Below are positions 16,782 to 64,000 of a stretch of 64,000 nt of DNA, piece after piece. Position 1 is the first letter of the stretch; every line of letters begins with the position of its first letter. The translations under genes and the position numbers were made by a program. The DNA is from Candidatus Omnitrophota bacterium (GTDB taxonomy: Bacteria; Omnitrophota; Gorgyraeia; Zapsychrales; Fredricksoniimonadaceae). Location: contig CAIOPG010000009.1 of assembly GCA_903860135.1 (NCBI GenBank), positions 37,916-101,915 of the forward strand. Reading direction: 5' to 3'. The notes beneath the pieces are model-generated. The model searched no databases, was not told the origin of the DNA, and worked only from the letters and a program-made list of their open reading frames with translations.

Positions 16782-16795
16782 AGAAAGGCACTTAA

Positions 16796-34838: not shown

Positions 34839-34851
34839 GCCAGAGGGGGCA

Positions 34852-35496: not shown

Positions 35497-35499
35497 GGC

Positions 35500-39605: not shown

Positions 39606-39624
39606 ACCTGTCTCCTGCCCGTGG

Positions 39625-39843
39625 TTAAACCTTACCCAGGATCATGATCGCGATGATCAGTCCATAAATCGCAATGCCTTCGGCCAGCCCGACAAAGATC
39701 AAGGCCTTACCAGTCACTTCCGGTTTCTCCCCCATAGCCCCGACAGCGGCTGACCCGACATACGCCACCGCGATCCCTGCCGATACCGACCCCAGCCCCA
39801 CCGCCAACGCCGACGACAAATATGCCCAACTGTGTGTATCCAT
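39625..39843 (-). CDS. atpK: V/A-type ATP synthase proteolipid subunit K (c), 2-TM form
   Basis: 72 aa, two hydrophobic helices. Conserved Glu in helix 2 (GLAEGIAIYGL). Confidence 0.8.
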   Translation of the reverse strand: MDTHSWAYLSSALAVGLGSVSAGIAVAYVGSAAVGAMGEKPEVTGKALIFVGLAEGIAIYGLIIAIMILGKV

Positions 39844-39857
39844 GGAACGCCTCCTTT

Positions 39858-42738: not shown

Positions 42739-43050
42739 TCAACGCCCCAGTATCTTCCCAAAGAACTTTTCAGACACACCGTCGAGAGAATCTGTCGTCG
42801 CCGCCACCATCGCTCCGGCTTCACCCATGGCATCCTCGACAGCAGAATACTTGCTGTTTAAGGCATCTGCTTGCGCGTGCAGGATCATCATTTCACATTC
42901 TTTGATCCAGGCTTTCTGCTGAGCTTCTTTCAACCGCGCAGCCTCAGCGTTCGCTTCGGCAACCACAAGCAAAGCCGACGCTCGCGCTTCCTCGATCATC
43001 TGCGCCGCAGACGCCTCAGCCTCGAGTATCCCGGATATGATATTTTCCAT
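42739..43050 (-). CDS. V/A-type ATP synthase peripheral-stalk subunit G/H
   Basis: 103 aa, Ala/Glu-rich coiled coil. First ATPase gene. Confidence 0.5.
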   Translation of the reverse strand: MENIISGILEAEASAAQMIEEARASALLVVAEANAEAARLKEAQQKAWIKECEMMILHAQADALNSKYSAVEDAMGEAGAMVAATTDSLDGVSEKFFGKILGR

Positions 43051-43065: not shown

Positions 43066-43434
43066 TTAAGGATTTTCTTTATAATCAGGAATATTGAAAC
43101 GGCAAAAACGCAATAACTTGCTATATGTTTCAGTAGAAGAAGGATCATCCTTCACGAAGCGAACACCCGCCTCAAAACAGGTATCCTGACAAGCCGCCCT
43201 CGCCCAAGTTACCTTACCTACCAAATCCAGACATCCTTCAGAAGGGATGTCCATCGACATGAAAATCTTCTCACCTACTTTGAAATGCGTACGTCCAATG
43301 ATGTGACACCCATGGTGATGGATATCAAGGATCTCCGCCTGTTGGAAAGGCACAAACGCACTATCCTTATCGCGGCACTTCATCGCAAAAAGGACAGGTA
43401 TTCGTTCACAGTGTCTTTTGTCTTGGGCAGCCAT
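43066..43434 (-). CDS. PilZ-domain protein (putative c-di-GMP receptor)
   Basis: RHCER (RxxxR), then 25 aa later DIHHHG (DxSxxG variant with His). 122 aa. AAAGGGGG RBS. Confidence 0.6.
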   Translation of the reverse strand: MAAQDKRHCERIPVLFAMKCRDKDSAFVPFQQAEILDIHHHGCHIIGRTHFKVGEKIFMSMDIPSEGCLDLVGKVTWARAACQDTCFEAGVRFVKDDPSSTETYSKLLRFCRFNIPDYKENP

Positions 43435-43517: not shown

Positions 43518-46500
43518 TCATCTCCAATACATCATAAACCACGGCATTCGATAATAAGGCATAAAAATACGGGGAAAGAAATAAAAAGTCCCTTGCGCAA
43601 TAATTTTCCCATTATTAACAACACTGCGCATGCTCCAGATGGTAACATTTCTGCCAGAAGAAATCATACCGTAAAGATACAATCTATCAAAAGAAATCAG
43701 CGTAATATCCATTTTAGCATCGAGCATCCCCTTCAACGTAATACTACCAAAATCCGATACGATCAAAATCCCGCCAGTAATGCTACGGACAAGTCCTGTC
43801 ACCGTTGTGCCGAGATCGCTGAATAGATTCACATCACCTTTAGCAATTAACTGCCCGGATATTTGAATAGCACCCGTAGTAAAATCAACTGAACCAGCGA
43901 TATGCACATCCCCAGTCAATTGCACCATATAACCTGTCGAAATATTTAAGTTCCCCTCACCCGTAATACCAGCCAACCCGCCATCATATGCTAATGGATT
44001 AACCGTAATGGTACCATTAGCGGTCAATGCTATATTTGCTCCGCTGGTCATTGACTGCAAACGACCAACGATAATATTACTATTTTGAGAAACAATCGTT
44101 ACTCCATTACCGGTTGTTTGCAGGGCAATAATGTTAATCGTGCCCGTCGCCGTAATATTAACACTCCCGCTCACATAACAAAACAAATCAATATCGCCTG
44201 TAACATTAAGAAAAAAGTTGTTGCCTGTATTCTTGTAAACAGCACCCACATTCAGTTCAAGGTTCAATCCAGGGGTTGTTTTGCTACCGATTTCTCCTTT
44301 AGCATAGAGGATCGCCTGTGAAGCCACAATATCAACAGCTGTATCATACGCCGCAATTTCGCGGACATTGCCGGTCATGGCACTGATACTCACCTGCCCA
44401 TACTTAGGCCCTGCCGCTACATAATCGATTAAAACATCTCCTGCCGTCGATGCCAGCGCCACATTATTCCCTTTGGCGTCAAGAGAAGCAATCACAGATT
44501 TGGTTGTAATCGTTCCTCCAGCCAGGATCCGGATAGCCCCATTCTTGTTGATAACATTAAACAACAATACCGCGTCTTTCTCACTAATTTCAAATATTCC
44601 AGACGCAATCGATGCGGTTAATTGCGCGATATCCGTGCACAGATAACTTCCTATACCGACTGTTAACGTCAATGTATTGGCAGTCAGTGGTGAATTGCCA
44701 TTCATATAAACTTTATTACTGGCAACCAGGATAATATCCCCTTTTACTGTACCAGTACTCACCATCCCTGATATAAGAATATTCCCTGAGGAAGAAATAT
44801 TGATCGTACCTTGGGGGGCATTGATGGATGTCAACTCTATATCGGCAGACTGACCGGCAATACTAACCTTATTAAAGGCAATCGTTCCGCCTGTCCCACA
44901 AACGGCTTGCAGTACTTTGACCGCCATCTCCAGATGACGTGCAGGATCAATGCCGGCGATAGACACACCGGCATTGATGAATGTCTTCCCGGCAACAATA
45001 TCAGCATCTGGATCTGTTGCAAGAATTTCATAGACTGATCCAGCGGCACTTAAGGTAATAACCCCCGTATCAGAACCTGCATCAATATATCCGATTTGAA
45101 TATCCTTCCCTGCAGATAATATGATCTTCCCGCCTTTGGCAACCAAATGATAAGCCGTAATAGAACCAGTGGCAGTGACATTCACAATACCGAGAACATC
45201 AGCATTCAGATACACATCGCCATCACTGATAAGATTCAGATCACGGGCAATGATTTGTAAACTCTTGACATTGAATTCTAAATTAAGCAACGGATTCGTT
45301 AAACTACCTACAAGCAATGCTTTAAAATCTGTACGCTGGGCAACAACATCCACCCCTGTCTTTAAATCAACAAGGCTGTCGGTCGGCAACTCATAAATGG
45401 CACCGATCGCTGCATACACAGATACTTTCCCATAATTTATCCCTGCCGCCAGATAATCAATCTGCACATCACCCATGCTGACAAAGATCGTAATATCATT
45501 ACCGGTTGTATCCATTTCGCTGATAACTGAGCCGACCACAACCTGTCTTGCAGCCATGATATTAATCGAGCCATTATGATTGATCACAGAATCAAGCAGG
45601 ATTGAATCAGTTTCAGAAATATTAATGCATCCGTTTGATGTCTGCGCCGTAAGGATAGTTATTCTTGTATTCAATGACATACCGGATACAGCACCTGCAT
45701 TCAAATGGGCAGTGTCAATATATGTCCCAGGTGTACTTGTCAATTGATCCGCGAAAAGGGTGATATCGCCTGCCGCCATAATGTTATTAAGGCTTAATGC
45801 GCCTGTATTCGTCACATTGATCGGTCCGTCACTGGACTTAGCGGACAATATTGCCAGTCGTGTGGATATGTTACCAATACCCTTCCCGGCCAGCAATTGA
45901 GCCTCAAAGGCTTGAAGGTTCACACCGGCAGTGAGCCCGGAAATCCATGACCCGGCGGTCAGTTTGACCAATCCGCTTCCAGCATCAAGTTGAACGATCA
46001 AAATATCCTTCGGCGTTAACAGGGAAACTGATTTATCTATGGTTTGTAAACGAGTGACCGTAATAACATCGCTGGCATTAACGATCAGGGCACATTCAAG
46101 AGGGGTAGTAAAGTTAATGTCAAAACCACCGGGAACATCAATCTCAAGCGTATCAGCAACGTCTAACTCCATGTCAAGTGTGAGCGTACCGCCAGACCTG
46201 AGAATGAGCTTGTTGGCCTCTATATCGACAGTGCTATCGCCCGGAAGGTTCTCTTGGATATCACCTTTGGCATCGAGTGTTATGGTTCCGGTTGAATGAA
46301 GATAATCAATAAACAGGTTGCCCTGTGTTCTTACCGTAACACCACCTTCATGGCTCATCAACCGTTGCAACAATAATGAATCGTTGCCAGAATTATAAAC
46401 ATTGATACCCTTCTGCGCTGTCACATCGAGCGCGGCAAGGTTCAATGTTGTATCCGTTGCGCCATTCACCGCTCCGCCGGCTGTTAGGAATAACACACCA

Positions 46501-49500
46501 TGGTTAGACAGTGTAATGTCCCCCAGCGATATGTCATCGGTTTCATGGATCGTCACATTGCCTTCGCCGGTCAACATCAAAAGTCCGACGGCTGTATTCA
46601 GTTCAACCATGCCGTTAGCCTGGCATTGTTGGGCATCAACGATATCTAATGATGCAGCCGCAATGAAGATATCGCCATTCATGGCCTGAATCTTTGCCTG
46701 TATGCCGACCTGATTACCGGCGATGATACGGATCGTTCCCTGCAATGCGTCGAGCGCATACTCCGGAGGCGTCACAATAACTGATTTATTGATAACGACA
46801 TAGTTCAGGACCGTTTCATCCTGGGTAACTGCGGTAGTCTTCCAGGCCGTTTTTTCAACCGTCGTGATCTTTTGGTGAATTTCTGTCACCGGCTGGATCA
46901 CCGGAGCATCCTGATAAATAAGATTCACTTGGCTTACCACCTGATAATTCAAATGCCGGCGAGGGTCAAGGATGGTATGGTTGTTGTATATTGTATCAAG
47001 CATGTAGTGGTATCTGGATTCAAAATCGTCGACAAGGATATAGGGAGGCGTTGGCGGTGCATAGTTTCTGGTATTTAAGTCTGCCATGACATTGGTAACA
47101 GGATAAGTGGCCGAAACATCGCCATAAAGGGTATTTATCCATTGCAAGTTTTGTACCCACTGATTATTAAGCCAACCGGTTGCTGAATTCCCGTCAATAT
47201 TAGCAATATCCTGAATATGGCCTTGATACTGCCAATGACTGCCTGTGACAACCTGATCCCATACGACCGATTGTTGAGCATTTTCCCAACGCACAAGGTC
47301 GTAGGTACTGTAACGTGGTTGTGCTGATCCATAATGCGCATAAATCGGAGAATACCGTTGAATCCACCACCTTTGCTGGAACCAGGATGATTCTCTGGCA
47401 TAAACATAATAATATGAACCAGCCGAATCAACCCACGCCTGTCCTACACTATAGTGGTTATCCAAAATAAAATACCAACCTGTCGCCTGCACACCCCAAT
47501 TATCACGGTAACTGCCCAATGAGTCTCCAAAATCACCGACGTACACATCAAGAATATCTGTTTTTTGCTGCGCATTCACGGGGATCGTATCTGTCATGCG
47601 GCTGTCAAACGAATAGGTAAAACGGGAAGATGTGGTATTATTCGCTGAATTAATTAAAGATAATTCACGAACCCCTCCCCAAAACGCAATATCATCCAAA
47701 GCGGAAACTTTACGCAACTCACCGGATATCATTTGATAATAGTACGGCGCTTCAATATAAAATGTTATCTGTTGGCGGATGGCGAACATGATATCGCCGT
47801 TTTCCTGCTGAAAAACAAGATCATTGATTTGATCCTGGTTAAAATCATACGCGACTGTTAGCAGTTTAACCTTGTTCCCGTGACTTATAACCTTACGTTC
47901 ATCAACCTTCCCCGCCCCATCGCCATACCAGACCTCCACATCCCCGTTAGCAAGGCTGACAATAATATCTTTGAAACTGTCGCGATCAAAATCCTGTGCC
48001 GTCAATGCACCGCCAAGCCAGTTACTGTCTGTTCTTATATCACTCCAGAACTCTTGCCAATTGACAGCCCCAAAGGCATCCTTTTGGCCAAGCCATACGA
48101 TAACGCTCTCGTCGGTATGCATTTGACTATCATTAGGGCTATACCAACGGGTTGAGGACTGCGTCACGATGTCCATGATCCCGTCATTATTCATGTCAAT
48201 CACCACAAAGGAAGAAACTTGATAACACAGTTGAAGGCGATCACTCCATTGACCATTCCCTTGATTAAAATATATAGCCAGATATGTTGGCCCTATCTGC
48301 AACAAAGGTGCGATGAAATCCAACAACCCATCACCGTTAAGATCCGTCAACGTTATTTTGTTCCCACCATAATATGAACACGGAAAGTCAGGGCCGCTAC
48401 GGGCAGTAAACCCGCCTTTACCATTACCTTCATAAATTACAGGATTTAAGATAATTTCATTCCCATCAGCGTCAAGACCCGGTAACGGGCAATAAGCCAC
48501 GTCCAGGTTCCCGTCATGATTAACATCGGCAACCTGAACATCCTGACCTGGCCGCGCGTCCAGAATAATGGGGTCAATAAATATACCGTTACCGGTATTG
48601 AACAATAATTGCATACCTTGATTCTTGGTGACAAGTGCCAGATCCATCTTCCCGTCATTATTAAGATCTCCTGCCTGCACGGCAACCGGCGGGCTGTCAA
48701 TCACGTATCCTATCACCCCATTCCATGCGCCAGTTACTGCATTGTACTTGAGGATTTCAAGAGTGGAAACATAGGCACCTTCTCTGGCGATTATCAATTC
48801 AGCGACGCCATCACCATCCATATCCGCCATACAAAATACCTTAAAAGATAACCCTTGAGCATCAATAACGGCTGTCTGGCTAAAATCAACGGCATTGCTT
48901 CTGGTGGACAGTGCGGCCTGAAAGGATGCCGTGCTGTAATTGGCGGACTTGGTCCAGACCGGGTCTTCCGCATAAGAATAGGAATTCTGCCCACTGGCAT
49001 CATTGATGATAATATTCCGTTGCCCGGAATTCTTTACATACTCCAGCATATACCACTGCACCCATTCGGGTCCGGGCTGTTGAACGCCTTGCTGGAACAA
49101 GCCGCTATTGTAATAATCATATGCCGGTCCGTCGGTCACCGCTGTGCGGCTATCAGCGAACCAACCAATCGTCAGCTCTTGTCCAACGGACAATGTGGAC
49201 GGGACCCAATCATTCTTCCATGTGAACCCATCACGTATAATGGCCGTATTAACGGTGCCGTCCGCCTTCAGAATGACAGCGTTCCGATCCAAACCATCTT
49301 TCCAGCCCGGCCACCACCAGCCGATCTGATGCAATTGTACCTTAGCGGTCAGCCAGGTGTTACCGACATCGACATATTCCAATGGATCTGCCGGCAGGGC
49401 AATGGCTTTCTGAATGTCCTGTTTGGCACCTTTGAGTATCTTTAACCAAAAGTCAGGCCGCTTATCCACAGGAAGGCTCGTATAAGCCGTCCCTAGAAAA

Positions 49501-58500: not shown

Positions 58501-61500
58501 CTCGTCGCGCCGATAATGGCATCAAGAGGCTTGTTCATGCCGGAGAAATCCAGGAATGTTTGCCCGAATGTGTCACTGAAAGTATCATTTCCAAAATCAT
58601 CGTTAAAGATATAACGGTCATGACCTTCGCCGCCCCGGAGTGTATCGTCACCGGATCCGCCATTCAATACATCATTCCCCGCGCCACCGGTCAAAATGTC
58701 ATTGCCGTCGCCGCCATCAAGAATGCCGCCGACGTTACCACCTGTTAACCGATCGTTCCCACTCCCTCCAATTAAAGACACATCCTTTAACGCACGCGAG
58801 GCATTTAGGATATCATTGCCATTGCCGCCATCGAGAACCCCGCCGGCAACACCGCACGTTAATCGATCATGGCCATCATCACCAAAGAATGTTACAGGGA
58901 TATCCAGCAAACCGGAGGCATCAAGGGTGTCATTGCCGTTGCCACCATGCGCCACCACTGATGTTACACCTTCGTAGGTTTGAGTCCATTCCCGATAAGT
59001 AACTGTGACCGTTGATCCTGAACCGGTCAACGTAAATGTTTCGTTGCCATCGTCTTTATCAATGTACTGGCGTTGATACGCCAGTGAACCGGAATGCACA
59101 TGCATCACGCCTGAAGAAACATCCGCAAGATAGGGGGCCACTACCGGCGCACGGTAACTCCCCGACCAAAGAACCTGGTTGCATAAAGGATAATTCAGCA
59201 ATCGTTCCCAATGGAACGGAACATAGATATCCACGAAGGCATTGGCAAAAAATGACAGGGTGGCATCCATATTAACAAGATTAAAGAAGCCGTCGCCATT
59301 ATACCCAAACATCGTCGCAACTTCAGAACCATGAATGCGTCCGTCGTTATTCAGATCCTGGAAGTCAATGCCGACATTAAGATTAAGGCCGCCACCCAAA
59401 CCGCCGCGCACAATCAGGAATCCTACGGCTGCTTCAAGACCCACTGAAGCGGTGAACGTTAGTTCGTACTTGTCTTTCCCGTTGATATCAAAATCGTTGA
59501 GATAAAAACCGTCCATCGCATCCAGATAGTTGCCACTATCAATGGCTTTGCGAATGCCTGAGGTATCATAACCAAATGACAGGTCTGCCATGGCTGAGAA
59601 GCCACCAAAAATGGAAATTGATAACTGAATTGGGCCCAGCGGAATCATGGCAAGTTGTTGACGGAAATTCATACTGAATTGTAAAAGTGGCAAGGTACTG
59701 GTGAACAAGACGGCATTACCGCCCGTAAACACGGCCATCCAGTTGTCCAGTTTAAACAATGGGCTGATATCAAACAATTTTCGATCATCCAACGGAGACG
59801 CATTGCCATCGGCGTTGCCCGCGCCCTTCAGTGCCGTCATCACCTCTTCGAGCTGGCCGCTATTAGATGCCGGATTGGAAGCCTGACAAAAGGCAGTTCC
59901 AAGCCCGCCGAGGTCGCCCAACAGAATAACGCCATCATGCGCGATGGATTGCGAAACAGCGACGATCCTATCCACCATATTAAGCAGGTAGCGGGCATCG
60001 TTCACAAAACTCCAGTCGATCGTCTTGTTCTGGGTGCTCGCCACAAGGCTGATCAAACCCATCATATTGGGGGCATATCCCCTGCTTTGGAGCAAGGGGC
60101 CAAGCCCTGGGATCGTTTGACTAATCGTATCGATCACGCTCTTGATGGGCCCAAGGGTGTTCTGGATTTTGCTGGCAATGGGTAGCAAAACATTACCGAA
60201 CAGGCTGTCCATCTTGATCCCGAGATTATTTAAACCAGTCACCAACTGTGTGGTGCCCCCCTGCAAGGACCATCCCCAATCCAGGTTAAAGTCACCTGCA
60301 AGGCTGGGGAGCCATCCACCATTAGCCACACTTAGTTCCAACCTCAGGTTGATATCTGCCTCGACGCCGAAATCGATCTTGAATATTTTGTCCAGGGGGC
60401 GAGAAAAGACGTTATCGAGCGTTAATCGATCAGCAGATCCTCCGTCAATGTTCAAGGATAAGGAACCAAAAAGACCACTGGTGGTAAAGGGGCTGTCGGG
60501 ATTATTATTCCCCTCATCGGTGGCTGTCAGATTAAAAAACAATAATTTCCCGTTTGCCTTGAAAGGAGCACCCCCGATGCCGGTCAACACCGCACCAACA
60601 TTTACTTTTAATTCAGGATTGGTGGGATCGCTATTCGTCGAAAGATAAAAACCGTTGGCCAGGCTCAATCCAAAACCAAAATCAAATGACCATTCTCCGA
60701 CAAGCCCGAATCCGCCATCGAGAGAAAAACCGAAACCTGGCAAATCAAGGTTCAGGGGGATCTGCACCGAAGAATCAATCAATGTCCCGCCAAGGATCAA
60801 ATCAAACTGAATAGCATCCGCACCGCTGGGAACACGTTCGCCCACATGCCATAGCTGGTTTGTACCGTCTTTATTCATCCACCGTACCTGAATATCGGCG
60901 ATGGTAATCAGGTTATTGCCATCGGAATCAGTGAGCAGGACGTGTTGTGGCGTTGTCAGCAGGTCAAAAAGACTTTGACGGATCAATTCCACTGTTTTCC
61001 CGGTCCCATCCAATTTGTTGCGCAGATCTGTCAGAAACCCATTACGAAAATCACGTAAGAAATGGACTGTATCCCCCAGACTGGAACCAAGGAACGGAAT
61101 ATTTTGTGCCAGTGCCGAACCAAAAACATCCTGCATGGCACCCAAGGCCATATCCAGACCGCTGATCACATTAGAAGGATCATCAATGAGCAGTTCCAAG
61201 GGATTCCCCCCAAAACCAGCTCCGGAGAGCAATTCATTGATCCTTTCACTGAAATTAGGTAACGTGCCGGTATTAACAAAATGGAAACCTGTTTGGTCAA
61301 AATAGCCCTGGCAAGCCACCAATCCAAAATCCAGCCGGCTACCAAAAATATCCACGGTTACAGGCAATGAGGTGGAGAAACCAAATTGAAGATTACTATC
61401 TAAAACATTCAGATTGATCAGATTGTTCGTATTAGAGGTGAGTGTTATGGTGAGCGAGGCAGGAATAGCATTGGCAAGAACGCCATCGGCGTTGAATACC

Positions 61501-64000
61501 GCAGAACCTCCGGTGATGCCTGCAGCGAACGGCCCCAGATGTAACGCCAAATTAAGATTTTGTGCCCACAATCCAGCGGTTACACTCAAACGGCAACCCT
61601 GCCCGGTAACAGGATCATAGGCAAGAAAAACAACCGGCGGAGAAATTCCGGACAGATCAAACTGCATCTGCATCAACCAATGGATACCCACATCGACTTG
61701 CACAAAACCACCCGAACTATCCGTCAACTGGATAGTGCCCAGATCAAGGCTGAATGTGGTGCGGCTATTAAATACAGCCTGCCAATTGATCGTCATGTCC
61801 AGTTTGCCATTATGGATAACAAGAGCAAAAGCATCATCGCTTAGACCGAGCGCTTGTTGCACAGCATTTTCGACATCCTGAATGCAATCGACTCCGGATT
61901 TCTGCAAGGTTTGCAGTTTTGTCTCAAAGTCGCTGATAAATGATAACACTTCCGATAATGAACGATTCACCACAGGCAATGGCTGTGTGTAAAACGATTG
62001 GCCTTGTAACTCATTATCAATCCAGCTGATAGCATCTGAAATCGCGCCTAAAATATTATCAAAACTCAGGGCTCCTGGATTCATGCTGAATTGCGGCAAG
62101 GTAATGGCATCCGCAGGGATATGACTAAAATCAGTGATATCCACCAGCAAGGCATTATGTCCCTGGATAACCGACAGCCCCGGAACCCCTTCAACCCAAA
62201 CACTGCGCAGGGCAAGATGCAAAGATGCCGTAAAAACCGGCTCTTGTACAGCTGTTAATACGTCCGACAGAGAATAAAATTCATGATCTCCGCTGGGTGT
62301 CGCGACAGTAAGTCCAGCTGAAAAGTTGACCATGGAATTTGTTCCCGGCCCGCCGGCAGTGCAGCGGATGAATCCGGCCTTGGCGACAACAAAAATATCT
62401 GTCACATCAAAAGCCACGGTCCCATTTAATGTAAGTCGGCTAAAAGTCACGCTCATATCGTCTTCGGCTGACACCGGATCATTCCCATCAATATCCAAGC
62501 GGACGACTACGCCCCCGGCAATCGTGATCGCGGCATTGAACCGGGCATCCGTTATTAAAGAAATGAGCCCCTGGAGAGCGTCAATATTAAGATCCAATGG
62601 TTTATTTTGCAGATCCGTCGGCAAAAGATTTATATTGAATGCCAGCGGCAACGTAAATTGTGCGGTTAAAGGATCATAAGCGAGCTGGCTTCCGGCAGGG
62701 AGTAACCCGGAACGATTAACTGCGGAAATAAAATCATTCAAGGTTTTAATCGGTTCACATCCAGCAGCATATACGGTATAGGACAGGCTGGTTTTTTGCT
62801 TATCACCCAGTGTTAACAGTTCCGGTAGCGGTGCTATGGCGAGGGTGCGATAGTCGATGCGGCTCAAAATCAATAATGGCGACAATCCCGTCAGATACAG
62901 CACACGGTTTTGCCATGATTCAGTGCTGTCAAAGATGACAAAACCTTTCAAGATAGCTGTAATAATGCTCGACGGAATAGCAGGATTAACTGCGGCCAGC
63001 GATAAAATGGTGTTTTCAGTTACACTTGGAAGGAATTCAAAATCCGTAATTTTCTTATCATCGAGCGATTGCGCAGTAAAGATTGATTCCAATGCTATGC
63101 GGTATGCTGATATGTCACCAAGCTCTGTCTTTAAAATACCGGTGTTTCCCGGTGCCGTGAACGCCCATTGAGTCACGCCGTTGACGACGGTTGATATTAA
63201 ACCGCCGCCGGTTCCCTGCCCGACAACAACCCCATCAAACGGGATACGTGCGTTCACTTCATCGCGGATAGCCGCAGCAAAATCCAGGACATCGCTCACC
63301 GGGCGATTGATCACGGGGATCATAACATCCCTAATAGCAGGATTTTGAGCCAGCGGTGCCAGCATATCGGCAAGTTTTGTAATCAATTCCCTCACATCCA
63401 TCATGCTTAATTGACGGAATGGATTGAGTTGATCCATATCGGTAGGGATGATTGTTGGCGAGAAAGCAAAAGGTACATTGCCCGTGCCCCCGCTTAAAGA
63501 GAGGGAAATCGTCAGTGTCGGGATATGCAATGGATCAACGGTAAATAGGGGAACTCCTGAAAAATGAACATAGAGGGGTAAGGTCATTGTTAAGTGGTTT
63601 GTTAACGGATGCCCCAGAGCATCTGTTGGAGAAAAGGTCAATGTCTCACCAGATGAAGGGGACAGTGAAGATGTCGCCGAAAACGTGAATGTACCGCCAA
63701 TGGCCATATCCACCGTTCCCTTCTGTCCGCCGGCATCTCCAATACTGATGTCCAGAGGCCCCAACATGGCAGTAAGGATTAAATCATTGGCCTGTGCCCC
63801 GGCTGTAAACGCGCAATGATTAAAATTAAAATCGAATGTACCGTCACTGCCATTGGCTCCGGGAGTGTACGTCAGGGCCAATTCAATATCCAGTGCTACG
63901 GCAAGGTCAAGGGTCGCAGAACCAGTCAGCTGTATGCCTTCCTGCGAAGAAAGTTCTGCCGGCAACACCAGCGGTGTTGATTGATGATAGGAAGGTTTAG
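43518..64000 (-). CDS. giant multi-module surface/adhesin-like protein, >6,827 codons, 5' end beyond window edge
   Basis: Single uninterrupted frame on the minus strand from the window edge to the stop at 43518-43520. It contains an RTX GGxGxD block, FG-GAP repeats, beta-helix-like periodic repeats and internal diverged tandem repeats. Confidence 0.85.
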   Translation of the reverse strand, partial: KPSYHQSTPLVLPAELSSQEGIQLTGSATLDLAVALDIELALTYTPGANGSDGTFDFNFNHCAFTAGAQANDLILTAMLGPLDISIGDAGGQKGTVDMAIGGTFTFSATSSLSPSSGETLTFSPTDALGHPLTNHLTMTLPLYVHFSGVPLFTVDPLHIPTLTISLSLSGGTGNVPFAFSPTIIPTDMDQLNPFRQLSMMDVRELITKLADMLAPLAQNPAIRDVMIPVINRPVSDVLDFAAAIRDEVNARIPFDGVVVGQGTGGGLISTVVNGVTQWAFTAPGNTGILKTELGDISAYRIALESIFTAQSLDDKKITDFEFLPSVTENTILSLAAVNPAIPSSIITAILKGFVIFDSTESWQNRVLYLTGLSPLLILSRIDYRTLAIAPLPELLTLGDKQKTSLSYTVYAAGCEPIKTLNDFISAVNRSGLLPAGSQLAYDPLTAQFTLPLAFNINLLPTDLQNKPLDLNIDALQGLISLITDARFNAAITIAGGVVVRLDIDGNDPVSAEDDMSVTFSRLTLNGTVAFDVTDIFVVAKAGFIRCTAGGPGTNSMVNFSAGLTVATPSGDHEFYSLSDVLTAVQEPVFTASLHLALRSVWVEGVPGLSVIQGHNALLVDITDFSHIPADAITLPQFSMNPGALSFDNILGAISDAISWIDNELQGQSFYTQPLPVVNRSLSEVLSFISDFETKLQTLQKSGVDCIQDVENAVQQALGLSDDAFALVIHNGKLDMTINWQAVFNSRTTFSLDLGTIQLTDSSGGFVQVDVGIHWLMQMQFDLSGISPPVVFLAYDPVTGQGCRLSVTAGLWAQNLNLALHLGPFAAGITGGSAVFNADGVLANAIPASLTITLTSNTNNLINLNVLDSNLQFGFSTSLPVTVDIFGSRLDFGLVACQGYFDQTGFHFVNTGTLPNFSERINELLSGAGFGGNPLELLIDDPSNVISGLDMALGAMQDVFGSALAQNIPFLGSSLGDTVHFLRDFRNGFLTDLRNKLDGTGKTVELIRQSLFDLLTTPQHVLLTDSDGNNLITIADIQVRWMNKDGTNQLWHVGERVPSGADAIQFDLILGGTLIDSSVQIPLNLDLPGFGFSLDGGFGLVGEWSFDFGFGLSLANGFYLSTNSDPTNPELKVNVGAVLTGIGGAPFKANGKLLFFNLTATDEGNNNPDSPFTTSGLFGSLSLNIDGGSADRLTLDNVFSRPLDKIFKIDFGVEADINLRLELSVANGGWLPSLAGDFNLDWGWSLQGGTTQLVTGLNNLGIKMDSLFGNVLLPIASKIQNTLGPIKSVIDTISQTIPGLGPLLQSRGYAPNMMGLISLVASTQNKTIDWSFVNDARYLLNMVDRIVAVSQSIAHDGVILLGDLGGLGTAFCQASNPASNSGQLEEVMTALKGAGNADGNASPLDDRKLFDISPLFKLDNWMAVFTGGNAVLFTSTLPLLQFSMNFRQQLAMIPLGPIQLSISIFGGFSAMADLSFGYDTSGIRKAIDSGNYLDAMDGFYLNDFDINGKDKYELTFTASVGLEAAVGFLIVRGGLGGGLNLNVGIDFQDLNNDGRIHGSEVATMFGYNGDGFFNLVNMDATLSFFANAFVDIYVPFHWERLLNYPLCNQVLWSGSYRAPVVAPYLADVSSGVMHVHSGSLAYQRQYIDKDDGNETFTLTGSGSTVTVTYREWTQTYEGVTSVVAHGGNGNDTLDASGLLDIPVTFFGDDGHDRLTCGVAGGVLDGGNGNDILNASRALKDVSLIGGSGNDRLTGGNVGGILDGGDGNDILTGGAGNDVLNGGSGDDTLRGGEGHDRYIFNDDFGNDTFSDTFGQTFLDFSGMNKPLDAIIGATSVAVTSDSSSINALRTVVPQLNLGSGNDNVTVSSLPENPMTIIDAGGNDTYWIVMAPVNPTDIKKTLAIVDNGGAFDEIVIEQKFTMDLTTRQQIPLVLEPYAILSGDSRVDFGVVASDGSQTSGIERETMIGFGTRFASRHGNVAVDGDTIINVGGTVAIAGTGPGGLIDLDSVGLRVIATVINNAVLQGPVRAGHILLHALGSINTRGVSLEAVDNGYIELASFGNGYVTRQSLLNAGVIATDLSGLLEYLRSQGVIIFNSSSEDMTAPLWLQPFVSGLTDASGLILSAANEKYRQLLYALFNQTAVNSNVNIDLLASVTGSNAAGDGNGSGWIRLMAPLGSITSMGAPIKVSAGHLVLFARDTVGSVAAPITTTVAKLSVTTSVSGSGNIVIVESDGLTLQASSTFSIENDGFTLRAYAAIPGWSTRLINAVGHQPWDKAIDAGHGNISITLNNQASLLTLATGKIVAHGYLAEIALTADDMDFKSGINSIIGTGTLVIRAKSDPWQYTFGTAAEDALGHNEDDPGYIQSATVDLRPSLDLSTRDLAAIKDGFTLLQFGVNNADAVSKNVMILGRLTVNDNVQYHADTLTVWGIVNVYDDPPNNIGGHCTLIADDIEIKFTDIHTSVSAGIFAGEVSILATNTLQIWGFMRVQGNVMITAGNNLHKDTQITSLRLGDKAEIVVLQDNASIDIRSLNNALMAGVIRSDATADNNWVRIYGEEDVVQETGIISVPGSWDNNGPSIFIQADKSLTVSGKIFGGINELLGGGFIKTQRGNGAWVVLNGTRNVSVTGLVATANVLTFNDHGSVERFTLTGTVYSLGSAQDINIKAIDVILAGNLIGDGVATSIMVAADNTLLVSGAIRADKDIALIVNGRDTGDGLTLTTAGSIISGNGLINFTATEDIQSDGIISTNGQASTVTMMAGHDITIANGVNRCAVTATRGIALTAGNNLTLKLTGTLEVIHPSAVITLHAGKAMRLAGIVVADADNAVITCTALADFSLELGALIQTTLNNSQLLVSAEHSVAIKGDIAAGYSQDMAIGVWLQTGTNSSASLFSAWRMDITGTVTTSGHMQLDCGIDNSGVSLLMSGTLRTLAPNDTLVVRGDNDIRLLGNIFVSGAGSGISIKSSRQVYVDGEIQSEGKVVINGGVSSVYIVTATDALTSNILVSEAVLEVFTGGVPHLVRVHPDRANQTREDLAQDVQWALREAGFTIVAADGQVMDSITVTLTVDNKLQFTSGHDFSITGLGGSATLGLTDSNAALPLNGWQWVSAMGLIPANGQLTADISLVVNISKGTMTSHVPVVVLASATADNVTRWDLAADIQDACITAGLTTLDNGIVNGDMVARVEGNSIVLGSKYFFSLIGIRNTGLLGLNDGYTNTTSFYTVTGAWDILYADGILPDTVQFQVTAADTSVIVTVNSGTSLWDLLAQMQSQLPSGINVGLFGAKLFLSSTSSFSIQPLKNADCLGFDGFDELTANTAVPWSNVDLTLLPSSDKIFLGITRATLEGTHAVVSDFTITGVTQATQASNMYTVIHNTAVLQPFQFAVVFGANNTVQLLSQISFTLTAIGHTEICQGTNNLLIPAVAADEHFRFVATGDLLLTQDPIAVVLERTIINSNGLIQKQMINLRTMSTIWGSAAAIQQALINAGLVEMKVWIIGGRLVMDNPVSFSITGVSNSEFFGITTDHLTAQRAHASVIVTKVGRITSMHQADQLVSINIVGENQVRILGVMTAVGDGAIISIKANEQMFLDGTVEAQGAVDITGGDDASSSASVVFTSSSGITARMMTVYAMQDAVILGNCDARAAGGIISITADAHILIGGFWDGLYSGGILSADDAILLNGRSTSGFSVDIDGASILSTVTVNSRINITAGFHARILGGVVAGGVMNDVLVHQTVVGRTLTVFDTQSSISITVLGQVRVGLFLFAGKSILITAGNGVSVYGSAQIKTFADNGTIDIRAGQGILELFATPYSLAIETANWPQHTGGVLPDSVQFTLSVETEKNVFRQVLVNISKTITEDNRSVAGLIADVQYAINAALKTAGLGSDSPTPVSIQVILHDGKIVFTSEGQRFRITGGMNAILLGLSTGTVDAIEPVAMISAAALGGRVLLSGDAAFYIGGSIDSFAGLVFTGGGAGREITVDVPAVIRTRNGSIDFILDAGSNFMMKGLLSASGDGSSVGINGGSVLTISGSITANNAIMMVSGHLSVGQTQSVGITKTAVLSVATGNITIMGNGDIIIDNPINMSYSGSTLTVHTTNGVIWLGKDYGRIDVAGNVVLSGRALNLEGVIGATILSEGIELKADLNASLTGFIATDGNITLTAGQDILVTGKVTTAHGNIMMSAGWNFTTGRVANVIYNDQSDLMVQFGAIFEASHQIILRAAQATDALNTALLYLSPATILQASAGNTPITLILDSGMNIQLAGQLNCAKVEITAHASVLIGGKGYVNGVSATVPGSITAMDNIAIVAGSFYLDAGSLLTANWSGNILNAIDIKTTAGDTLLSGSMTALGSNAVIQVQSAGGLQVGGLILAGQRVTLGSGLKTNVMGASGVIPDLQIKRGAMVDTLSVNGNIDLESTGIIAVEGWVGAHSGGQQEINGAGAVTITTNSLVYVVGSVDNQGKSFDARVMAHQRILMEGIGGLIVTQGASITALDPWVSRVDIHGFNGDISLSAAIDTDALPAIISAGNSIWIEARNLSVGGTLVATGSIDALALQYLQITGVVKAGQAVSCIAGERDVNGFFTGKKDSAGSVLGNITISDAGQIKVISASARVDAITLKAAHNVTIVSANATGGSMLREISYVRPEETKVSYQVGIIREPSGTIQEQVIEYFLTTYMKETDWTPVLKGNWYYTLNVNVDQIGWYDVKTGKEYQTGAGDSSTITVNASPDGTFAVAYNPDTTALRQLYLVTYASGSGEVHTTLNGKDLVLVSDSDALRSLIANGTIAPSMVSPYAEQGYVYILRSDYLSVKRNNINLHIMEYVPEWNGLNDYEYIHCKDFLGTAYTSLPVDKRPDFWLKILKGAKQDIQKAIALPADPLEYVDVGNTWLTAKVQLHQIGWWWPGWKDGLDRNAVILKADGTVNTAIIRDGFTWKNDWVPSTLSVGQELTIGWFADSRTAVTDGPAYDYYNSGLFQQGVQQPGPEWVQWYMLEYVKNSGQRNIIINDASGQNSYSYAEDPVWTKSANYSTASFQAALSTRSNAVDFSQTAVIDAQGLSFKVFCMADMDGDGVAELIIAREGAYVSTLEILKYNAVTGAWNGVIGYVIDSPPVAVQAGDLNNDGKMDLALVTKNQGMQLLFNTGNGIFIDPIILDARPGQDVQVADVNHDGNLDVAYCPLPGLDADGNEIILNPVIYEGNGKGGFTARSGPDFPCSYYGGNKITLTDLNGDGLLDFIAPLLQIGPTYLAIYFNQGNGQWSDRLQLCYQVSSFVVIDMNNDGIMDIVTQSSTRWYSPNDSQMHTDESVIVWLGQKDAFGAVNWQEFWSDIRTDSNWLGGALTAQDFDRDSFKDIIVSLANGDVEVWYGDGAGKVDERKVISHGNKVKLLTVAYDFNQDQINDLVFQQENGDIMFAIRQQITFYIEAPYYYQMISGELRKVSALDDIAFWGGVRELSLINSANNTTSSRFTYSFDSRMTDTIPVNAQQKTDILDVYVGDFGDSLGSYRDNWGVQATGWYFILDNHYSVGQAWVDSAGSYYYVYARESSWFQQRWWIQRYSPIYAHYGSAQPRYSTYDLVRWENAQQSVVWDQVVTGSHWQYQGHIQDIANIDGNSATGWLNNQWVQNLQWINTLYGDVSATYPVTNVMADLNTRNYAPPTPPYILVDDFESRYHYMLDTIYNNHTILDPRRHLNYQVVSQVNLIYQDAPVIQPVTEIHQKITTVEKTAWKTTAVTQDETVLNYVVINKSVIVTPPEYALDALQGTIRIIAGNQVGIQAKIQAMNGDIFIAAASLDIVDAQQCQANGMVELNTAVGLLMLTGEGNVTIHETDDISLGDITLSNHGVLFLTAGGAVNGATDTTLNLAALDVTAQKGINVYNSGNDSLLLQRLMSHEGGVTVRTQGNLFIDYLHSTGTITLDAKGDIQENLPGDSTVDIEANKLILRSGGTLTLDMELDVADTLEIDVPGGFDINFTTPLECALIVNASDVITVTRLQTIDKSVSLLTPKDILIVQLDAGSGLVKLTAGSWISGLTAGVNLQAFEAQLLAGKGIGNISTRLAILSAKSSDGPINVTNTGALSLNNIMAAGDITLFADQLTSTPGTYIDTAHLNAGAVSGMSLNTRITILTAQTSNGCINISETDSILLDSVINHNGSINIMAARQVVVGSVISEMDTTGNDITIFVSMGDVQIDYLAAGINYGKVSVYAAIGAIYELPTDSLVDLKTGVDVVAQRTDFKALLVGSLTNPLLNLEFNVKSLQIIARDLNLISDGDVYLNADVLGIVNVTATGSITAYHLVAKGGKIILSAGKDIQIGYIDAGSDTGVITLSAAGSVYEILATDPDADIVAGKTFINAGVSIAGIDPARHLEMAVKVLQAVCGTGGTIAFNKVSIAGQSADIELTSINAPQGTINISSSGNILISGMVSTGTVKGDIILVASNKVYMNGNSPLTANTLTLTVGIGSYLCTDIAQLTASIASGIFEISEKDAVLLFNVINKNGAIRILAGGTITTKSVIASLDAKGNNVALASTAGDVLIDYVAAGPKYGQVSISAMTGNVREIAAYDTAVDIVASQAILYAKGEIGSKTTPGLNLELNVGAVYKNTGNNFFLNVTGDIDLFCYVSGSVNITATGTINIIALQTTGNGVTIVSQNSNIIVGRLQSMTSGANIALTANGTITVNPLAYDGGLAGITGEGNLNISTGYMVQLTGDVHIAGSVDFTTGAIQISGQLIAKGDVNLFSDLGTTVTGLVRSITGGILIVSDFGSITLKGMLDAKMDITLISFDRLYLYGMISSGRNVTIWSMRSVVNNGKIIAQGTFYFFPRIFMPYYRMPWFMMYWR
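43600..46500 (-). repeat. C-terminal beta-helix-like region with >=3 diverged ~100-aa tandem units carrying D(V/I)xIDYxAAG...G(K/Q)VS(V/I) motif
   Basis: DVQIDYLAAGINYGKVSVYA, DVLIDYVAAGPKYGQVSISA, DIQIGYIDAGSDTGVITLSA. Coordinates approximate. Confidence 0.5.
47780..48840 (-). repeat. FG-GAP/VCBS-type repeats (>=7) predicted to form a beta-propeller inside giant gene
   Basis: DMDGDGVAELI, DLNNDGKMDLAL, DVNHDGNLDVAY, DLNGDGLLDFIA, DMNNDGIMDIV, DFDRDSFKDIIV, DFNQDQINDLVF at ~50-60 aa spacing. Confidence 0.7.
52100..54960 (-). repeat. five or more copies of an unnamed ~60-90-aa module (consensus WDLxADVQxALxxAGL ... DGKxxFTSxxxFxITG ... LGL) interleaved with beta-helix segments
   Basis: Copies identified by eye in the translation, e.g. 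TREDLAQDVQWALREAGF...KLQFTSGHDFSITG and VAGLIADVQYAINAALKTAGL...KIVFTSEGQRFRITG. Coordinates approximate. Confidence 0.5.
58570..58905 (-). repeat. RTX-type calcium-binding nonapeptide repeats (GGxGxDxx) inside giant gene
   Basis: GGNGNDIL, GGSGNDRL, GGDGNDIL, GGAGNDVL, GGSGDDTL, GGEGHDRY in tandem. Confidence 0.8.

What the first reader, a model, noticed from the sequence alone, without database searches (positions are those of the whole stretch)
43518..64000. Giant gene: >20.4 kb single ORF (>6,827 aa, N-terminus beyond the window) encoding a mosaic surface protein
It occupies one third of the window with no internal stops.

Module order, N to C:
- ~1,700 aa unknown region;
- RTX Ca2+-binding block (58570-58905);
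- beta-helix segments interleaved with at least 5 copies of an unnamed module (52100-54960);
- aromatic-rich globular region;
- FG-GAP propeller (47780-48840);
- W/Y/Q-rich segment (46800-47780);
- ~1,250 aa beta-helix with diverged ~100-aa tandem units;
- an aromatic C-terminal tail ...FYFFPRIFMPYYRMPWFMMYWR.

The RTX block is internal rather than C-terminal, so canonical T1SS targeting is not evident and the secretion route is unknown. Genes of this size are rare and have been implicated in attachment or predation in some uncultivated lineages.
Basis: seen in the sequence. Interest (0 to 1): 0.85.

Follow-up and report, generated by a model that had tools for sequence, protein, structure and literature searches.

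The report
Giant Omnitrophota surface-fibre gene
This is the last two thirds of a real gene of about 10,200 codons from an uncultivated Omnitrophota bacterium, most likely encoding a very long cell-surface attachment fibre; giant genes followed by a small pilZ gene are already documented in this phylum, so it is a well-characterised new example, not a new kind of thing.

Summary
A stop-free frame of 6,826 codons runs on the minus strand from 63998 to 43518, with chance probability about 1e-150. It contains no DNA tandem repeats, and three independent assemblies are 100% identical over the fetched overlap. Gene calls on two long contigs give 10,202 and 10,223 aa, so about 3,400 N-terminal residues lie outside the window.

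The host is Omnitrophota (chorismate synthase 86% identical to an Omnitrophota MAG). As published for most Omnitrophota giant genes, a small pilZ gene follows immediately.

The "unknown" N-terminal 1,650 aa is not orphan. Exhaustive HMMER finds 256 relatives. Several of 3-7 kAA, and one of about 12 kAA, are collinear with this protein over thousands of residues. They come from cyanobacteria, Planctomycetota, Alphaproteobacteria and Magnetococcales. Complete relatives start with the NCBIfam LEPR-XLL motif.

The conserved core is modelled (pLDDT 76.5) as diverged ~330-aa repeats of helix bundles plus long antiparallel sheets, and no solved structure matches it. The RTX block, five copies of an unnamed module and a seven-bladed FG-GAP propeller are confirmed; the propeller is shown to be an insertion. 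No C-terminal sorting or T1SS signature is present.

Best reading: a calcium-stiffened adhesion fibre. Verdict: new member of a known kind, moderate interest.

The parts
43518..63998 (-). Giant ORF: 6,826 codons plus TGA stop (43518-43520). This is the C-terminal two thirds of a gene called as 10,202 or 10,223 aa on independent contigs.
59049..63998 (-). aa 1-1650: the family-defining conserved region. It consists of diverged ~330-aa repeats, each a bundle of long alpha-helices plus a sheet of 13-19-residue antiparallel strands. aa 640-1660 (59019-62081) were modelled.
   Evidence: 256 HMMER relatives. Collinear relatives. AF2 model pLDDT 76.5. Repeat units homologous by HHalign, 95.9% probability. 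No Pfam or PDB sequence match. No global structural match.
58482..59036 (-). aa 1655-1839: RTX Ca2+-binding beta-roll. Seven GGxGxDxUx nonapeptides at aa 1685-1788 (58635-58946).
   Evidence: Pfam PF00353 4.8e-9. PDB CyaA 1.6e-23 and serralysins. NCBIfam RTX models below cutoff. Motif count.
55050..58481 (-). aa 1840-2983: G/T/S/N-rich region after the RTX block, putative beta-solenoid. Conserved in relatives to about aa 2540-3000.
   Evidence: Collinearity. Only weak ~23-residue periodicity, z = 2.7.
54711..55049 (-). Unnamed ~100-aa module, copy 1 (aa 2984-3096)
   Evidence: Leave-one-out HMM 34.7 bits against shuffle maximum 8.1
54354..54698 (-). Unnamed module, copy 2 (aa 3101-3215)
   Evidence: Leave-one-out 41.8 bits. 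A copy in relative P0071 aligns here.
54063..54326 (-). Unnamed module, copy 3 (aa 3225-3312)
   Evidence: Leave-one-out 21.6 bits against shuffle maximum 9.0
53424..53723 (-). Unnamed module, copy 4 (aa 3426-3525)
   Evidence: Leave-one-out 22.8 bits
52218..52553 (-). Unnamed module, copy 5 (aa 3816-3927)
   Evidence: Leave-one-out 35.6 bits. The module also occurs in relatives L084 (2 copies), L091 (3 copies), P0071 and P0162.
50139..53411 (-). aa 3530-3810 and 3930-4620: putative beta-solenoid stalk segments on either side of module copy 5.
   Evidence: Collinear with relatives P0060, P0071, P0076 and P0078. Short regular strands at pLDDT 50-80 in the low-confidence model of aa 4307-4570. 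Weak periodicity.
48939..50111 (-). aa 4630-5020: conserved aromatic-rich domain (invariant DQIGWYD and HQIGWWW.GWK.GL). It matches no domain library and serves as the host domain for the propeller insertion.
   Evidence: About 40% identity to P0002 and P0003. Eight related metagenome loci, four of them with ORFs over 7,000 aa. Structure model unusable, pLDDT 43.
47784..48929 (-). aa 5024-5405: seven-bladed FG-GAP (integrin-alpha-like) Ca2+-binding propeller, inserted between two segments that are only 7 aa apart in relative P0002.
   Evidence: Pfam FG-GAP_3 5.8e-22. Seven D.[DN].[DN][GSQ]..[DE] loops. Both insertion flanks significant, 0 of 500 shuffles each.
46749..47753 (-). aa 5416-5750: W/Y/Q-rich segment (W 4.1%, Y 8.8%) with no detectable relatives. 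It begins with the shared EAPYYY motif.
43599..46751 (-). aa 5750-6800: C-terminal beta-solenoid with ~20-residue coils and diverged internal repeats.
   Evidence: Lag-20 hydrophobic periodicity z = 4.0. Self-BLAST repeats. Repeat units shared with L086-L091, P0076 and P0078.
43521..43598 (-). aa 6801-6826: aromatic C-terminal tail ...AQGTFYFFPRIFMPYYRMPWFMMYWR. No relatives and no known sorting-signal model.
43066..43434 (-). pilZ, 122 aa, 83 nt downstream of the giant gene, with its own RBS and a promoter-like site. RxxxR is present; the second c-di-GMP motif is degenerate (DIHHHG).
   Evidence: Pfam PilZ 9.5e-8. Motifs. Spacer. Published pilZ-after-giant-gene pattern.

Best explanation
The ORF is the C-terminal two thirds of a genuine gene of about 10,200 codons in a freshwater Omnitrophota bacterium. 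It encodes an exported, non-enzymatic (in the visible part), calcium-binding fibre that the cell uses to attach to another cell or surface.

Anatomy, N to C within the window:
1. A rod of diverged ~330-aa repeats, each a helix bundle plus a long antiparallel sheet.
2. An RTX beta-roll.
3. Solenoid-like stalk segments interrupted by five small ~100-aa modules.
4. A probable ligand-binding region: a conserved aromatic-rich domain from which a seven-bladed FG-GAP propeller buds, followed by a W/Y-rich segment.
5. A 1,050-aa solenoid with 20-residue coils, ending in a short aromatic tail.

The protein belongs to a cross-phylum family of multi-thousand-residue proteins whose complete members start with the LEPR-XLL motif (NCBIfam NF012209). 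Export therefore probably depends on the unseen N-terminus and not on a C-terminal T1SS signal. The adjacent pilZ gene suggests that c-di-GMP is coupled to display or use of the fibre.

Shown: the gene is real; its size; the taxon; the domain map; family membership by collinearity; the propeller insertion; absence of known C-terminal sorting domains.

Inferred: extracellular location, adhesion function, export route, c-di-GMP control.
For: - Real gene.
- Omnitrophota: AroC 86% and 84% identical to Omnitrophota MAGs, other phyla 62% or less.
- pilZ immediately downstream matches the published signature of Omnitrophota giant genes.
- Family: 256 relatives, 51 at E <= 1e-30. Collinearity over giant aa 2-4302 (P0060), 522-4759 (P0071) and into the C-terminal solenoid (P0076, P0078).
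- Relatives are named from Egbenema, Rubripirellula, Methylocystaceae ('LEPR-XLL domain-containing protein') and Magnetococcales.
- 8 of 8 tested N-termini hit NF012209 at 26.9-34.5 bits, cutoff 17.
- Extracellular-type content: RTX, seven Ca-loop FG-GAP blades, G/T/S/D/N-rich and Cys-poor composition (0.4% Cys), no convincing TM segment in 6,826 aa.
- The propeller is inserted into a domain that is continuous in a relative. This is the arrangement described for ligand-binding domains of fibrillar RTX adhesins.
- Core model pLDDT 76.5 with repeated helix/long-strand units, matching the description of an antiparallel beta structure with exterior helices in Omnitrophota giants.
Against: - The N-terminal ~3,400 aa and the upstream genes are outside the window. 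Signal, anchor and secretion system are untested here.
- There is no expression or localisation data.
- Most Omnitrophota giants carry many TM helices, SecA-like or enzyme domains. None is seen in the visible part, so this protein is atypical for the phylum's described types.
- The PilZ second motif is degenerate, and pilZ may have its own promoter.
- The aromatic domain could not be modelled, so 'ligand-binding' rests on composition and topology only.
- Solenoid assignments other than the C-terminal one are weak.
- Some relatives carry an endonuclease domain N-terminally, so the unseen part might add enzymatic functions.
Confidence: 0.55

Rival explanations
1. It is a type I-secreted RTX adhesin or toxin of the LapA, MpIBP or MARTX kind. 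In that case it would be exported C-terminus first through an ABC/MFP/TolC system encoded elsewhere, and the aromatic tail would serve as an unconventional T1SS signal.
For: A genuine RTX beta-roll is present. T1SS signals have no strong sequence consensus (my own knowledge), so absence of a match is weak evidence. The budding ligand-binding-domain topology resembles RTX adhesins. c-di-GMP control is typical of Lap-type adhesins (abstracts).
Against: The beta-roll lies more than 5,000 aa from the C-terminus, whereas the published minimum definition requires a C-terminal beta-roll plus T1SS signal and Ig-like extenders. No BIg domain is detected. There are no T1SS genes in the 43 kb downstream or next to relative P0084. 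The C-terminal 200 aa has no relatives. Complete relatives end in unrelated, non-aromatic tails.
Confidence: 0.12
2. It is a contact-dependent delivery or puncturing device and not a passive adhesin. In this view the repeated helix-bundle and long-sheet units assemble into the hollow tubule proposed for Omnitrophota giants. That tubule would form a conduit or lytic structure towards the host or prey cell, and the propeller and aromatic region would only do the targeting.
For: The core model consists of large meander sheets whose only structural neighbours are barrels and large lipid- or substrate-enclosing sheets. West-Roberts et al. describe ~1,500-aa hollow antiparallel-beta tubules with exterior helices in Omnitrophota giants. 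Omnitrophota are inferred to be episymbionts or predators. Some relatives carry a nuclease domain.
Against: pTM is only 0.50 and I could not inspect the 3-D geometry, so a hollow tube is not shown. There is no toxin, peptidase or hydrolase domain in the visible 6,826 aa. The family also occurs in free-living cyanobacteria, planctomycetes and methanotroph relatives, which argues against a predation-specific device.
Confidence: 0.15
3. It is a structural envelope or matrix component (S-layer-like sheath, holdfast or biofilm scaffold) with no specific ligand.
For: The family is widely distributed in free-living, surface-associated bacteria. The protein has repetitive rod-like architecture and Ca2+-binding domains.
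Against: A single-copy 10-kAA protein is an expensive building block for a lattice. The inserted propeller and aromatic domains, swapped between relatives, look like specificity determinants under diversification and not lattice contacts.
Confidence: 0.1
4. It is an assembly artefact, a pseudogene or a fusion of several genes.
For: Related loci L087-L089 and L093 show frame breaks inside homologous giant genes. Independent DNA was fetched only for 33066-53434.
Against: 6,826 codons without a stop have a chance probability of about 1e-150. There are no tandem repeats. Three assemblers give identical sequence and two give full-length calls of about 10,200 aa. Homologs are collinear across the whole length.
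Confidence: 0.02

Closest known systems
Omnitrophota giant genes (West-Roberts et al. 2023, bioRxiv 10.1101/2023.11.21.568195; Nielsen & Lui 2026, bioRxiv 10.64898/2026.06.07.730766)
   Same: Same phylum. The product exceeds 10 kAA. A small pilZ gene follows immediately. The protein is largely invisible to Pfam. It contains a long region of antiparallel beta sheets with interspersed helices. DNA-level tandem repeats have dissolved while protein repeats persist. An adhesion role is inferred.
   Different: It is neither an 'Archaeovorin' (no glycosyltransferase, methyltransferase, NUDIX, SecA_DEAD or GGDEF domain, no TM arrays in the visible part) nor a 'Dockerin-type' protein (no dockerin or TSP3). 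It is far below their giant threshold of more than 30,000 aa. What lies downstream is a V/A-ATPase operon, not solute-binding proteins and glycoside hydrolases. FG-GAP and RTX are not mentioned in either paper.
LEPR-XLL domain-containing giant proteins (NCBIfam NF012209 'LEPR-8K'), e.g. NVK17780.1 from a Methylocystaceae MAG, 7,008 aa
   Same: 30-36% identity. Collinear order: helix/sheet core, then RTX, then solenoid and, in some members, unnamed-module regions, then C-terminal solenoid repeats.
   Different: The defining N-terminal motif cannot be checked here because the N-terminus is outside the window. This protein is longer and carries an extra propeller and W/Y-rich region. The family is named but functionally uncharacterised; only two papers in the library mention the term.
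Fibrillar RTX adhesins (LapA, MpIBP, FrhA, Aeromonas RTX adhesin)
   Same: Megadalton Ca2+-binding fibre. A candidate ligand-binding domain buds from a split host domain. A c-di-GMP-related gene lies next door. Modules are mixed and matched between relatives.
   Different: The beta-roll is internal, not C-terminal. There are no Ig-like extenders and no adjacent T1SS. The stalks are solenoid or sheet repeats instead.
Chlorobium chlorochromatii CaD3 giant parallel beta-helix / haemagglutinin-like proteins (36,805 and ~25,000 aa) of an episymbiont
   Same: Giant, solenoid-rich, RTX-type or adhesin-like proteins in a bacterium that lives attached to another cell.
   Different: No sequence relationship was tested or found here. 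The domain sets differ (M36 peptidase, fibronectin-like repeats).

Membership tests
Omnitrophota giant genes (West-Roberts 2023) | Encoded in an Omnitrophota genome | tested here: met
   AroC is 86% and 84% identical to Omnitrophota MAGs and 76-78% to other hits labelled Omnitrophota or Planctomycetales; other phyla are at 62% or less
Omnitrophota giant genes (West-Roberts 2023) | Immediately followed by one or more small pilZ genes | tested here: met
   A 122-aa PilZ gene lies 83 nt downstream. Only one copy: the next ORF is V-ATPase-G-like, not PilZ.
Omnitrophota giant genes (West-Roberts 2023) | Preceded by a T2SS/T4P-like secretion locus | not testable with these tools
   The upstream region lies about 10 kb or more beyond the window edge and could not be fetched
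Omnitrophota giant genes (West-Roberts 2023) | Numerous TM helices; SecA_DEAD domain; N-terminal C39 or S8 peptidase | tested here: not met
   None found in the visible 6,826 aa. The unseen N-terminal 3,400 aa could still hold them.
Omnitrophota giant genes (West-Roberts 2023) | Archaeovorin enzyme set, or Dockerin/TSP3 repeats | tested here: not met
   Pfam and NCBIfam find only RTX and FG-GAP
Omnitrophota giant genes (West-Roberts 2023) | Long antiparallel-beta structure with regularly spaced exterior helices | tested here: inconclusive
   The secondary-structure pattern and repeat homology fit. I could not inspect 3-D geometry or compare with their models.
LEPR-XLL (NF012209) giant proteins | N-terminal LEPRxLLSAD motif | not testable with these tools
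   The N-terminus is outside the window. 8 of 8 tested complete relatives have the motif.
LEPR-XLL (NF012209) giant proteins | Homology and collinearity with named members | tested here: met
   P0078 = NVK17780.1 aligns with giant aa 55-4280 and 6086-6287. P0080, P0084 and P0092 behave likewise.
Fibrillar RTX adhesins | C-terminal beta-roll followed by a T1SS signal | tested here: not met
   RTX lies at aa 1685-1788 of 6,826. A solenoid runs to within 26 aa of the end.
Fibrillar RTX adhesins | Tandem Ig-like (BIg) extender array | tested here: not met
   No BIg or cadherin-type Pfam hit
Fibrillar RTX adhesins | N-terminal retention module; adjacent T1SS and LapG/LapD genes | tested here: inconclusive
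   No such genes in the 43 kb downstream. The upstream region and the N-terminus are not visible.
Autotransporters / two-partner secretion (FHA-like) | C-terminal 12-stranded beta-barrel (T5aSS) or N-terminal TPS domain (T5bSS) | tested here: not met
   No barrel model hit, and there is no room for one after the solenoid. The TPS domain is not testable because the N-terminus is unseen.
T9SS cargo / PEP-CTERM / LPXTG and similar C-terminal sorting signals | Recognisable C-terminal sorting domain | tested here: not met
   NCBIfam and Pfam find none in the C-terminal half. The last 200 aa have no relatives.
FG-GAP / integrin-alpha-type propeller | Seven FG-GAP blades with Ca2+-binding loops | tested here: met
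   Pfam FG-GAP_3 5.8e-22. Seven loop motifs, spaced 47-68 aa apart, found only in aa 5059-5393.

The most novel reading that the evidence does not exclude
The ~330-aa helix-bundle plus long-sheet repeats, which have no solved structural counterpart, may build a hollow conduit. Together with the uncharacterised LEPR-XLL leader, they would define a previously unrecognised export-and-contact apparatus for proteins of more than 5 kAA, shared by at least five phyla. Omnitrophota would have recruited it, adding a budded propeller and aromatic targeting head and a PilZ partner, for episymbiotic or predatory contact.
Probability: 0.12. Interest if true: 0.75.

Novelty: new member of a known kind. Interest (0 to 1): 0.35.

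Why it matters
It adds a well-dissected example to the catalogue of Omnitrophota giant genes. More usefully, it links one of them to a cross-phylum family of LEPR-XLL giant proteins found in cyanobacteria, planctomycetes, alphaproteobacteria and Magnetococcales. None of the papers read here mentions that link.

It also delimits three conserved domain types that have no database name:
- the ~330-aa helix/sheet repeat;
- the ~100-aa module;
- the ~390-aa aromatic-rich domain.

These could be turned into domain-family models. It further shows a propeller 'budding' from a split domain, a topology used in RTX adhesins to locate ligand-binding domains. That gives a concrete target for binding experiments, namely the propeller plus the aromatic region. 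The secretion route of proteins this long remains an open question.

Tried and rejected
1. Word-index homolog search with aa 1-1700 found only one weak hit. This wrongly suggested an orphan region; exhaustive HMMER corrected it.
2. Neither protein database returned the full-length protein, so the N-terminus could not be recovered. A genome-collection scan with aa 1-700 found nothing. Walking upstream by exact-protein look-up is blocked by the giant gene itself.
3. The structure model of aa 4307-5060 from a 3-sequence alignment had pLDDT 43 and was discarded for fold inference.
5. A profile of the core against PDB sequences gave only noise: HPr, E about 0.05.
6. The 103-aa ORF is not a second PilZ. 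It is probably V/A-ATPase subunit G.
7. The sixth module copy at aa 3318-3424 is not significant.
8. Hydrophobic periodicity does not significantly support solenoids outside the C-terminal region.
9. The C-terminal tail as a conserved sorting signal: no relatives were found.
10. Sample origin: the label 'BUCK21' suggests the Buck et al. 2021 stratified-lake dataset, but I could not verify the accession link.
11. The first large alignment call failed for technical reasons.
Full report
OBSERVATION. On the minus strand, a single frame is open from the right edge of the window (63998) down to a TGA stop at 43518-43520. It spans 6,826 codons. The next-longest open frame in the window has 799 codons. 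With the window's base composition a stop is expected every ~20 codons, so the chance of 6,826 stop-free codons is about 1e-150. The translation has the composition of a real extracellular repeat protein: G 10.5%, T 8.2%, S 7.8%, D 7.0%, N 6.2%, C 0.4%.

Tandem Repeats Finder reports nothing in 43000-64000. Self-BLAST finds only a few very diverged internal repeats. An exact look-up of the neighbouring 122-aa gene finds the same locus in two ENA assemblies (contigs of 257.8 and 272.6 kb) and one Logan assembly. All three are 100% identical to the window across the fetched overlap, 33066-53434. On the two long contigs the gene is called at 10,202 and 10,223 aa. The window therefore holds the C-terminal two thirds, and about 3,400 aa are missing. 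I could not fetch independent DNA for 53435-64000 or for the N-terminus.

ORGANISM AND NEIGHBOURHOOD. The window has no rRNA, tRNA or Rfam hit. Chorismate synthase (3714-4784) is 86% and 84% identical to two Omnitrophota MAGs and 76-78% to further hits labelled Omnitrophota or Planctomycetales; other phyla are at 62% or less. LpxB (31514-32647) indicates a diderm envelope.

Downstream of the giant gene on the same strand lie three features:
- an 83-nt spacer with a promoter-like site, a strong RBS and no terminator;
- a 122-aa PilZ-domain gene (Pfam 9.5e-8);
- a 103-aa Ala/Glu-rich ORF whose best, sub-threshold match is V-ATPase subunit G, followed by a complete V/A-type ATPase operon, a PIF1 helicase and two-component regulators.

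There are no T1SS, T5SS or T9SS genes anywhere in the 43 kb downstream. The PilZ protein keeps RxxxR (RHCER), but its second c-di-GMP motif is degenerate (DIHHHG).

WHAT IS ALREADY KNOWN. West-Roberts et al. (bioRxiv 10.1101/2023.11.21.568195) showed that giant genes are most common in Omnitrophota. [quoted passage not shown] They describe two types, the enzyme-rich, TM-rich 'Archaeovorins' and 'Dockerin-type' proteins. They also predict ~1,500-aa antiparallel-beta tubules with regularly spaced exterior helices. Nielsen & Lui (bioRxiv 10.64898/2026.06.07.730766) count 5,761 Omnitrophota proteins of 10 kAA or more. Of their clusters, 80% are singletons at 30% identity, and 137 of 916 catalogued proteins have no domain hit. 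In the catalogue, 94% have TM helices or a signal peptide, and DNA tandem repeats have mostly dissolved. So the size, the phylum and the pilZ neighbour of this gene reproduce a documented pattern. Neither paper mentions FG-GAP or RTX domains.

DOMAIN MAP (aa numbering within the window). Pfam and NCBIfam recognise only two things. One is the RTX block: seven nonapeptides at aa 1685-1788, with PDB sequence hits to CyaA at 1.6e-23 and to serralysins. The other is the FG-GAP region, where seven Ca-loop motifs occur only in aa 5059-5393, which fits a seven-bladed propeller.

Five copies (aa 2984-3096, 3101-3215, 3225-3312, 3426-3525, 3816-3927) each score 21.6-41.8 bits against an HMM built from the other four. 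The maximum for 200 shuffles is 11.8 or less. A sixth candidate is not significant.

No 19-residue window reaches a convincing TM hydrophobicity. The maximum Kyte-Doolittle mean is 1.67, in segments that contain Pro, Asp or Glu. A dedicated TM predictor was not available.

A ~20-residue hydrophobic period supports a solenoid in aa 5750-6800 (z = 4.0). The other 'beta-helix' segments show only weak ~23-residue signals.

THE N-TERMINAL REGION IS THE FAMILY CORE. The word-index search suggested an orphan, with one weak hit. The exhaustive HMMER search of 1.84 billion representatives with aa 1-1200 found 256 relatives: 119 at E <= 1e-10 and 51 at E <= 1e-30. Many of them are 3,000-7,008 aa long.

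BLAST mapping shows long collinear alignments:
- P0060 (6,021 aa) aligns with giant aa 2-4302.
- P0071 aligns with aa 522-4759.
- P0076 and P0078 align through the RTX block and the stalks and again in the C-terminal solenoid.

P0102 together with an adjacent 8,421-aa ORF forms one interrupted relative of about 11.9 kAA. Source names place relatives in Egbenema (cyanobacteria), Rubripirellula (Planctomycetota), Methylocystaceae and Magnetococcales. One of them is annotated by NCBI as 'LEPR-XLL domain-containing protein'. Thirteen relatives with complete N-termini carry LE[PEQ]R[IL][LM]LS[AG]D 15-55 residues from the start. All eight that I tested hit NCBIfam NF012209 at 26.9-34.5 bits, against a cutoff of 17. 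These leaders are basic and lack a hydrophobic signal-peptide core; this is read directly from the sequences. The motif is almost absent from the literature.

The unnamed module and the C-terminal solenoid repeats also recur in relatives. So the 'mosaic' is a conserved body plan with variable inserts.

STRUCTURE OF THE CORE. With a 32-sequence alignment, AlphaFold2 models aa 640-1660 at mean pLDDT 76.5, with 752 of 1,021 residues at 70 or above and pTM 0.50. The model alternates bundles of long helices with sheets of 13-19-residue antiparallel strands, for example H302-327 with H332-357, H625-654 and H691-713. Profile-profile comparison shows that the ~330-aa units are homologous: unit 1 against unit 2 gives 95.9% probability and E = 5.5e-9, and unit 2 against unit 3 is weaker.

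THE PROBABLE BINDING REGION. The aromatic-rich domain (aa ~4630-5020) is about 40% identical to two fragments, P0002 and P0003. It has invariant DQIGWYD and HQIGWWW.GWK.GL motifs. Back-translated patterns found eight further loci in TARA and JGI metagenomes. In four of them the ORF is open across the entire 21-22 kb fetched, which means more than 7,000 aa.

After this domain, P0002 and P0003 carry a ~95-aa tandem repeat array instead of a propeller. The end of P0002 matches this protein on both sides of the propeller:
- 'YAYLEDPIWAGSGNYET' matches aa 5007-5023;
- 'AAGQDISLYVEVPYYY' matches aa 5406-5421.

For each match, none of 500 shuffles reached the observed score. The two segments are 7 aa apart in P0002 and 382 aa apart here. 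The seven-bladed propeller is therefore an insertion into a host domain. This is the 'ligand-binding domain budding from a split domain' topology used to locate binding domains in RTX adhesins (bioRxiv 10.1101/2025.09.30.679566). The structure model of the aromatic domain was too poor to use, at pLDDT 43. The W/Y/Q-rich segment (aa 5416-5750) and the last 200 aa, including the aromatic tail, have no detectable relatives.

SECRETION AND ANCHORING. [quoted passage not shown] The solenoid runs to within 26 residues of the end. Complete relatives end in unrelated tails. A relative on a 104-kb contig has no adjacent T1SS.

By homology, the most likely determinant is an N-terminal LEPR-XLL-type leader. 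By phylum precedent, an upstream T2SS/T4P-like locus may be involved. What has changed is that the question has narrowed to the N-terminus and the upstream region.

MECHANISM (committed, confidence 0.55). The protein is an exported, Ca2+-stiffened fibre. Its N-terminal part is a rod of helix/sheet repeats. An RTX roll and solenoid stalks with small modules extend it. A head made of the aromatic domain, the budded propeller and the W/Y-rich segment binds a partner surface, probably glycans. A further solenoid and the aromatic tail end the chain. In an Omnitrophota cell this would mediate attachment to a host or prey cell or to a particle. The PilZ neighbour would couple this to c-di-GMP.

The steps shown are gene integrity, the domain map, family membership, the propeller insertion and the absence of known C-terminal signals. 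The steps inferred are location, ligand, export route and regulation.

The rivals are a T1SS RTX adhesin (0.12), a contact-dependent conduit or lytic device (0.15), a structural matrix protein (0.10) and an artefact (0.02).

VERDICT. The gene is real and well assembled. It is a new member of a known kind: an Omnitrophota giant gene with a pilZ neighbour. It fits neither described Omnitrophota type. Instead it belongs to a cross-phylum family of LEPR-XLL giants that contains three conserved, unnamed domain types. Interest is moderate (0.35). The main open points are the unseen N-terminus and upstream locus, and the three-dimensional form of the core repeats.

Noticed in passing
window 8500-18000 (+ strand), e.g. 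14034-14885, 12598-13233, 9218-9877: A run of small same-strand ORFs with lower GC (0.43 at 8-10 kb). It includes a PM2-type double-jelly-roll major capsid protein (Pfam P2_N + P2_C, 8.8e-15), a packaging-ATPase/terminase-like protein (PHROG 2666, 8e-25) and a weak replication-initiator hit. It is probably a small tailless PM2-like (corticovirus-like) prophage in an Omnitrophota genome.
   Followed up: partly
window 5496-7838 (+): A 780-aa protein that combines a cyclic-nucleotide-binding domain, an AAA_31 (ParA/MinD-like) region and a patatin-like phospholipase domain. It is a possible cNMP-regulated lipase.
   Followed up: no
window 42739-43050 (-): A 103-aa Ala/Glu-rich coiled-coil ORF between pilZ and the V/A-ATPase genes. 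Its best, sub-threshold hit is V-ATPase_G_2 (E = 0.01). It is probably the peripheral-stalk subunit of the operon and not a partner of the giant gene.
   Followed up: yes
window 33477-42688 (-): A complete V/A-type ATPase operon (subunits C/d, I, c, F, E, A, B, D) lies directly downstream of pilZ and is followed by a PIF1-family helicase. This differs from the solute-binding-protein and glycoside-hydrolase context reported downstream of most Omnitrophota giant genes.
   Followed up: partly
L093 712-21286; also L087, L088 and L089: Homologous giant genes in other metagenomes are interrupted by single frame breaks or stops. For example, a 3,524-aa ORF with an Endonuclease_NS domain is followed after 80 nt by an 8,421-aa ORF that continues the same alignment. 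These breaks could be sequencing errors, pseudogenisation or programmed events.
   Followed up: partly
P0002 aa ~700-1180 and P0003 aa ~600-1060: Relatives carry a tandem array of ~95-aa repeats (consensus ...EEHR..W[SK]AEA.W.Y..G..LG....G..F.SE.EA.AAL P..G...) where this protein has the FG-GAP propeller. The repeat has no Pfam match.
   Followed up: no
window 24771-27994 (-): A low-GC stretch (0.38-0.43). It holds a PMT_2-type glycosyltransferase-like membrane protein (528 aa) and an adjacent 546-aa protein with no family hit. It may be an acquired envelope-glycosylation island.
   Followed up: no
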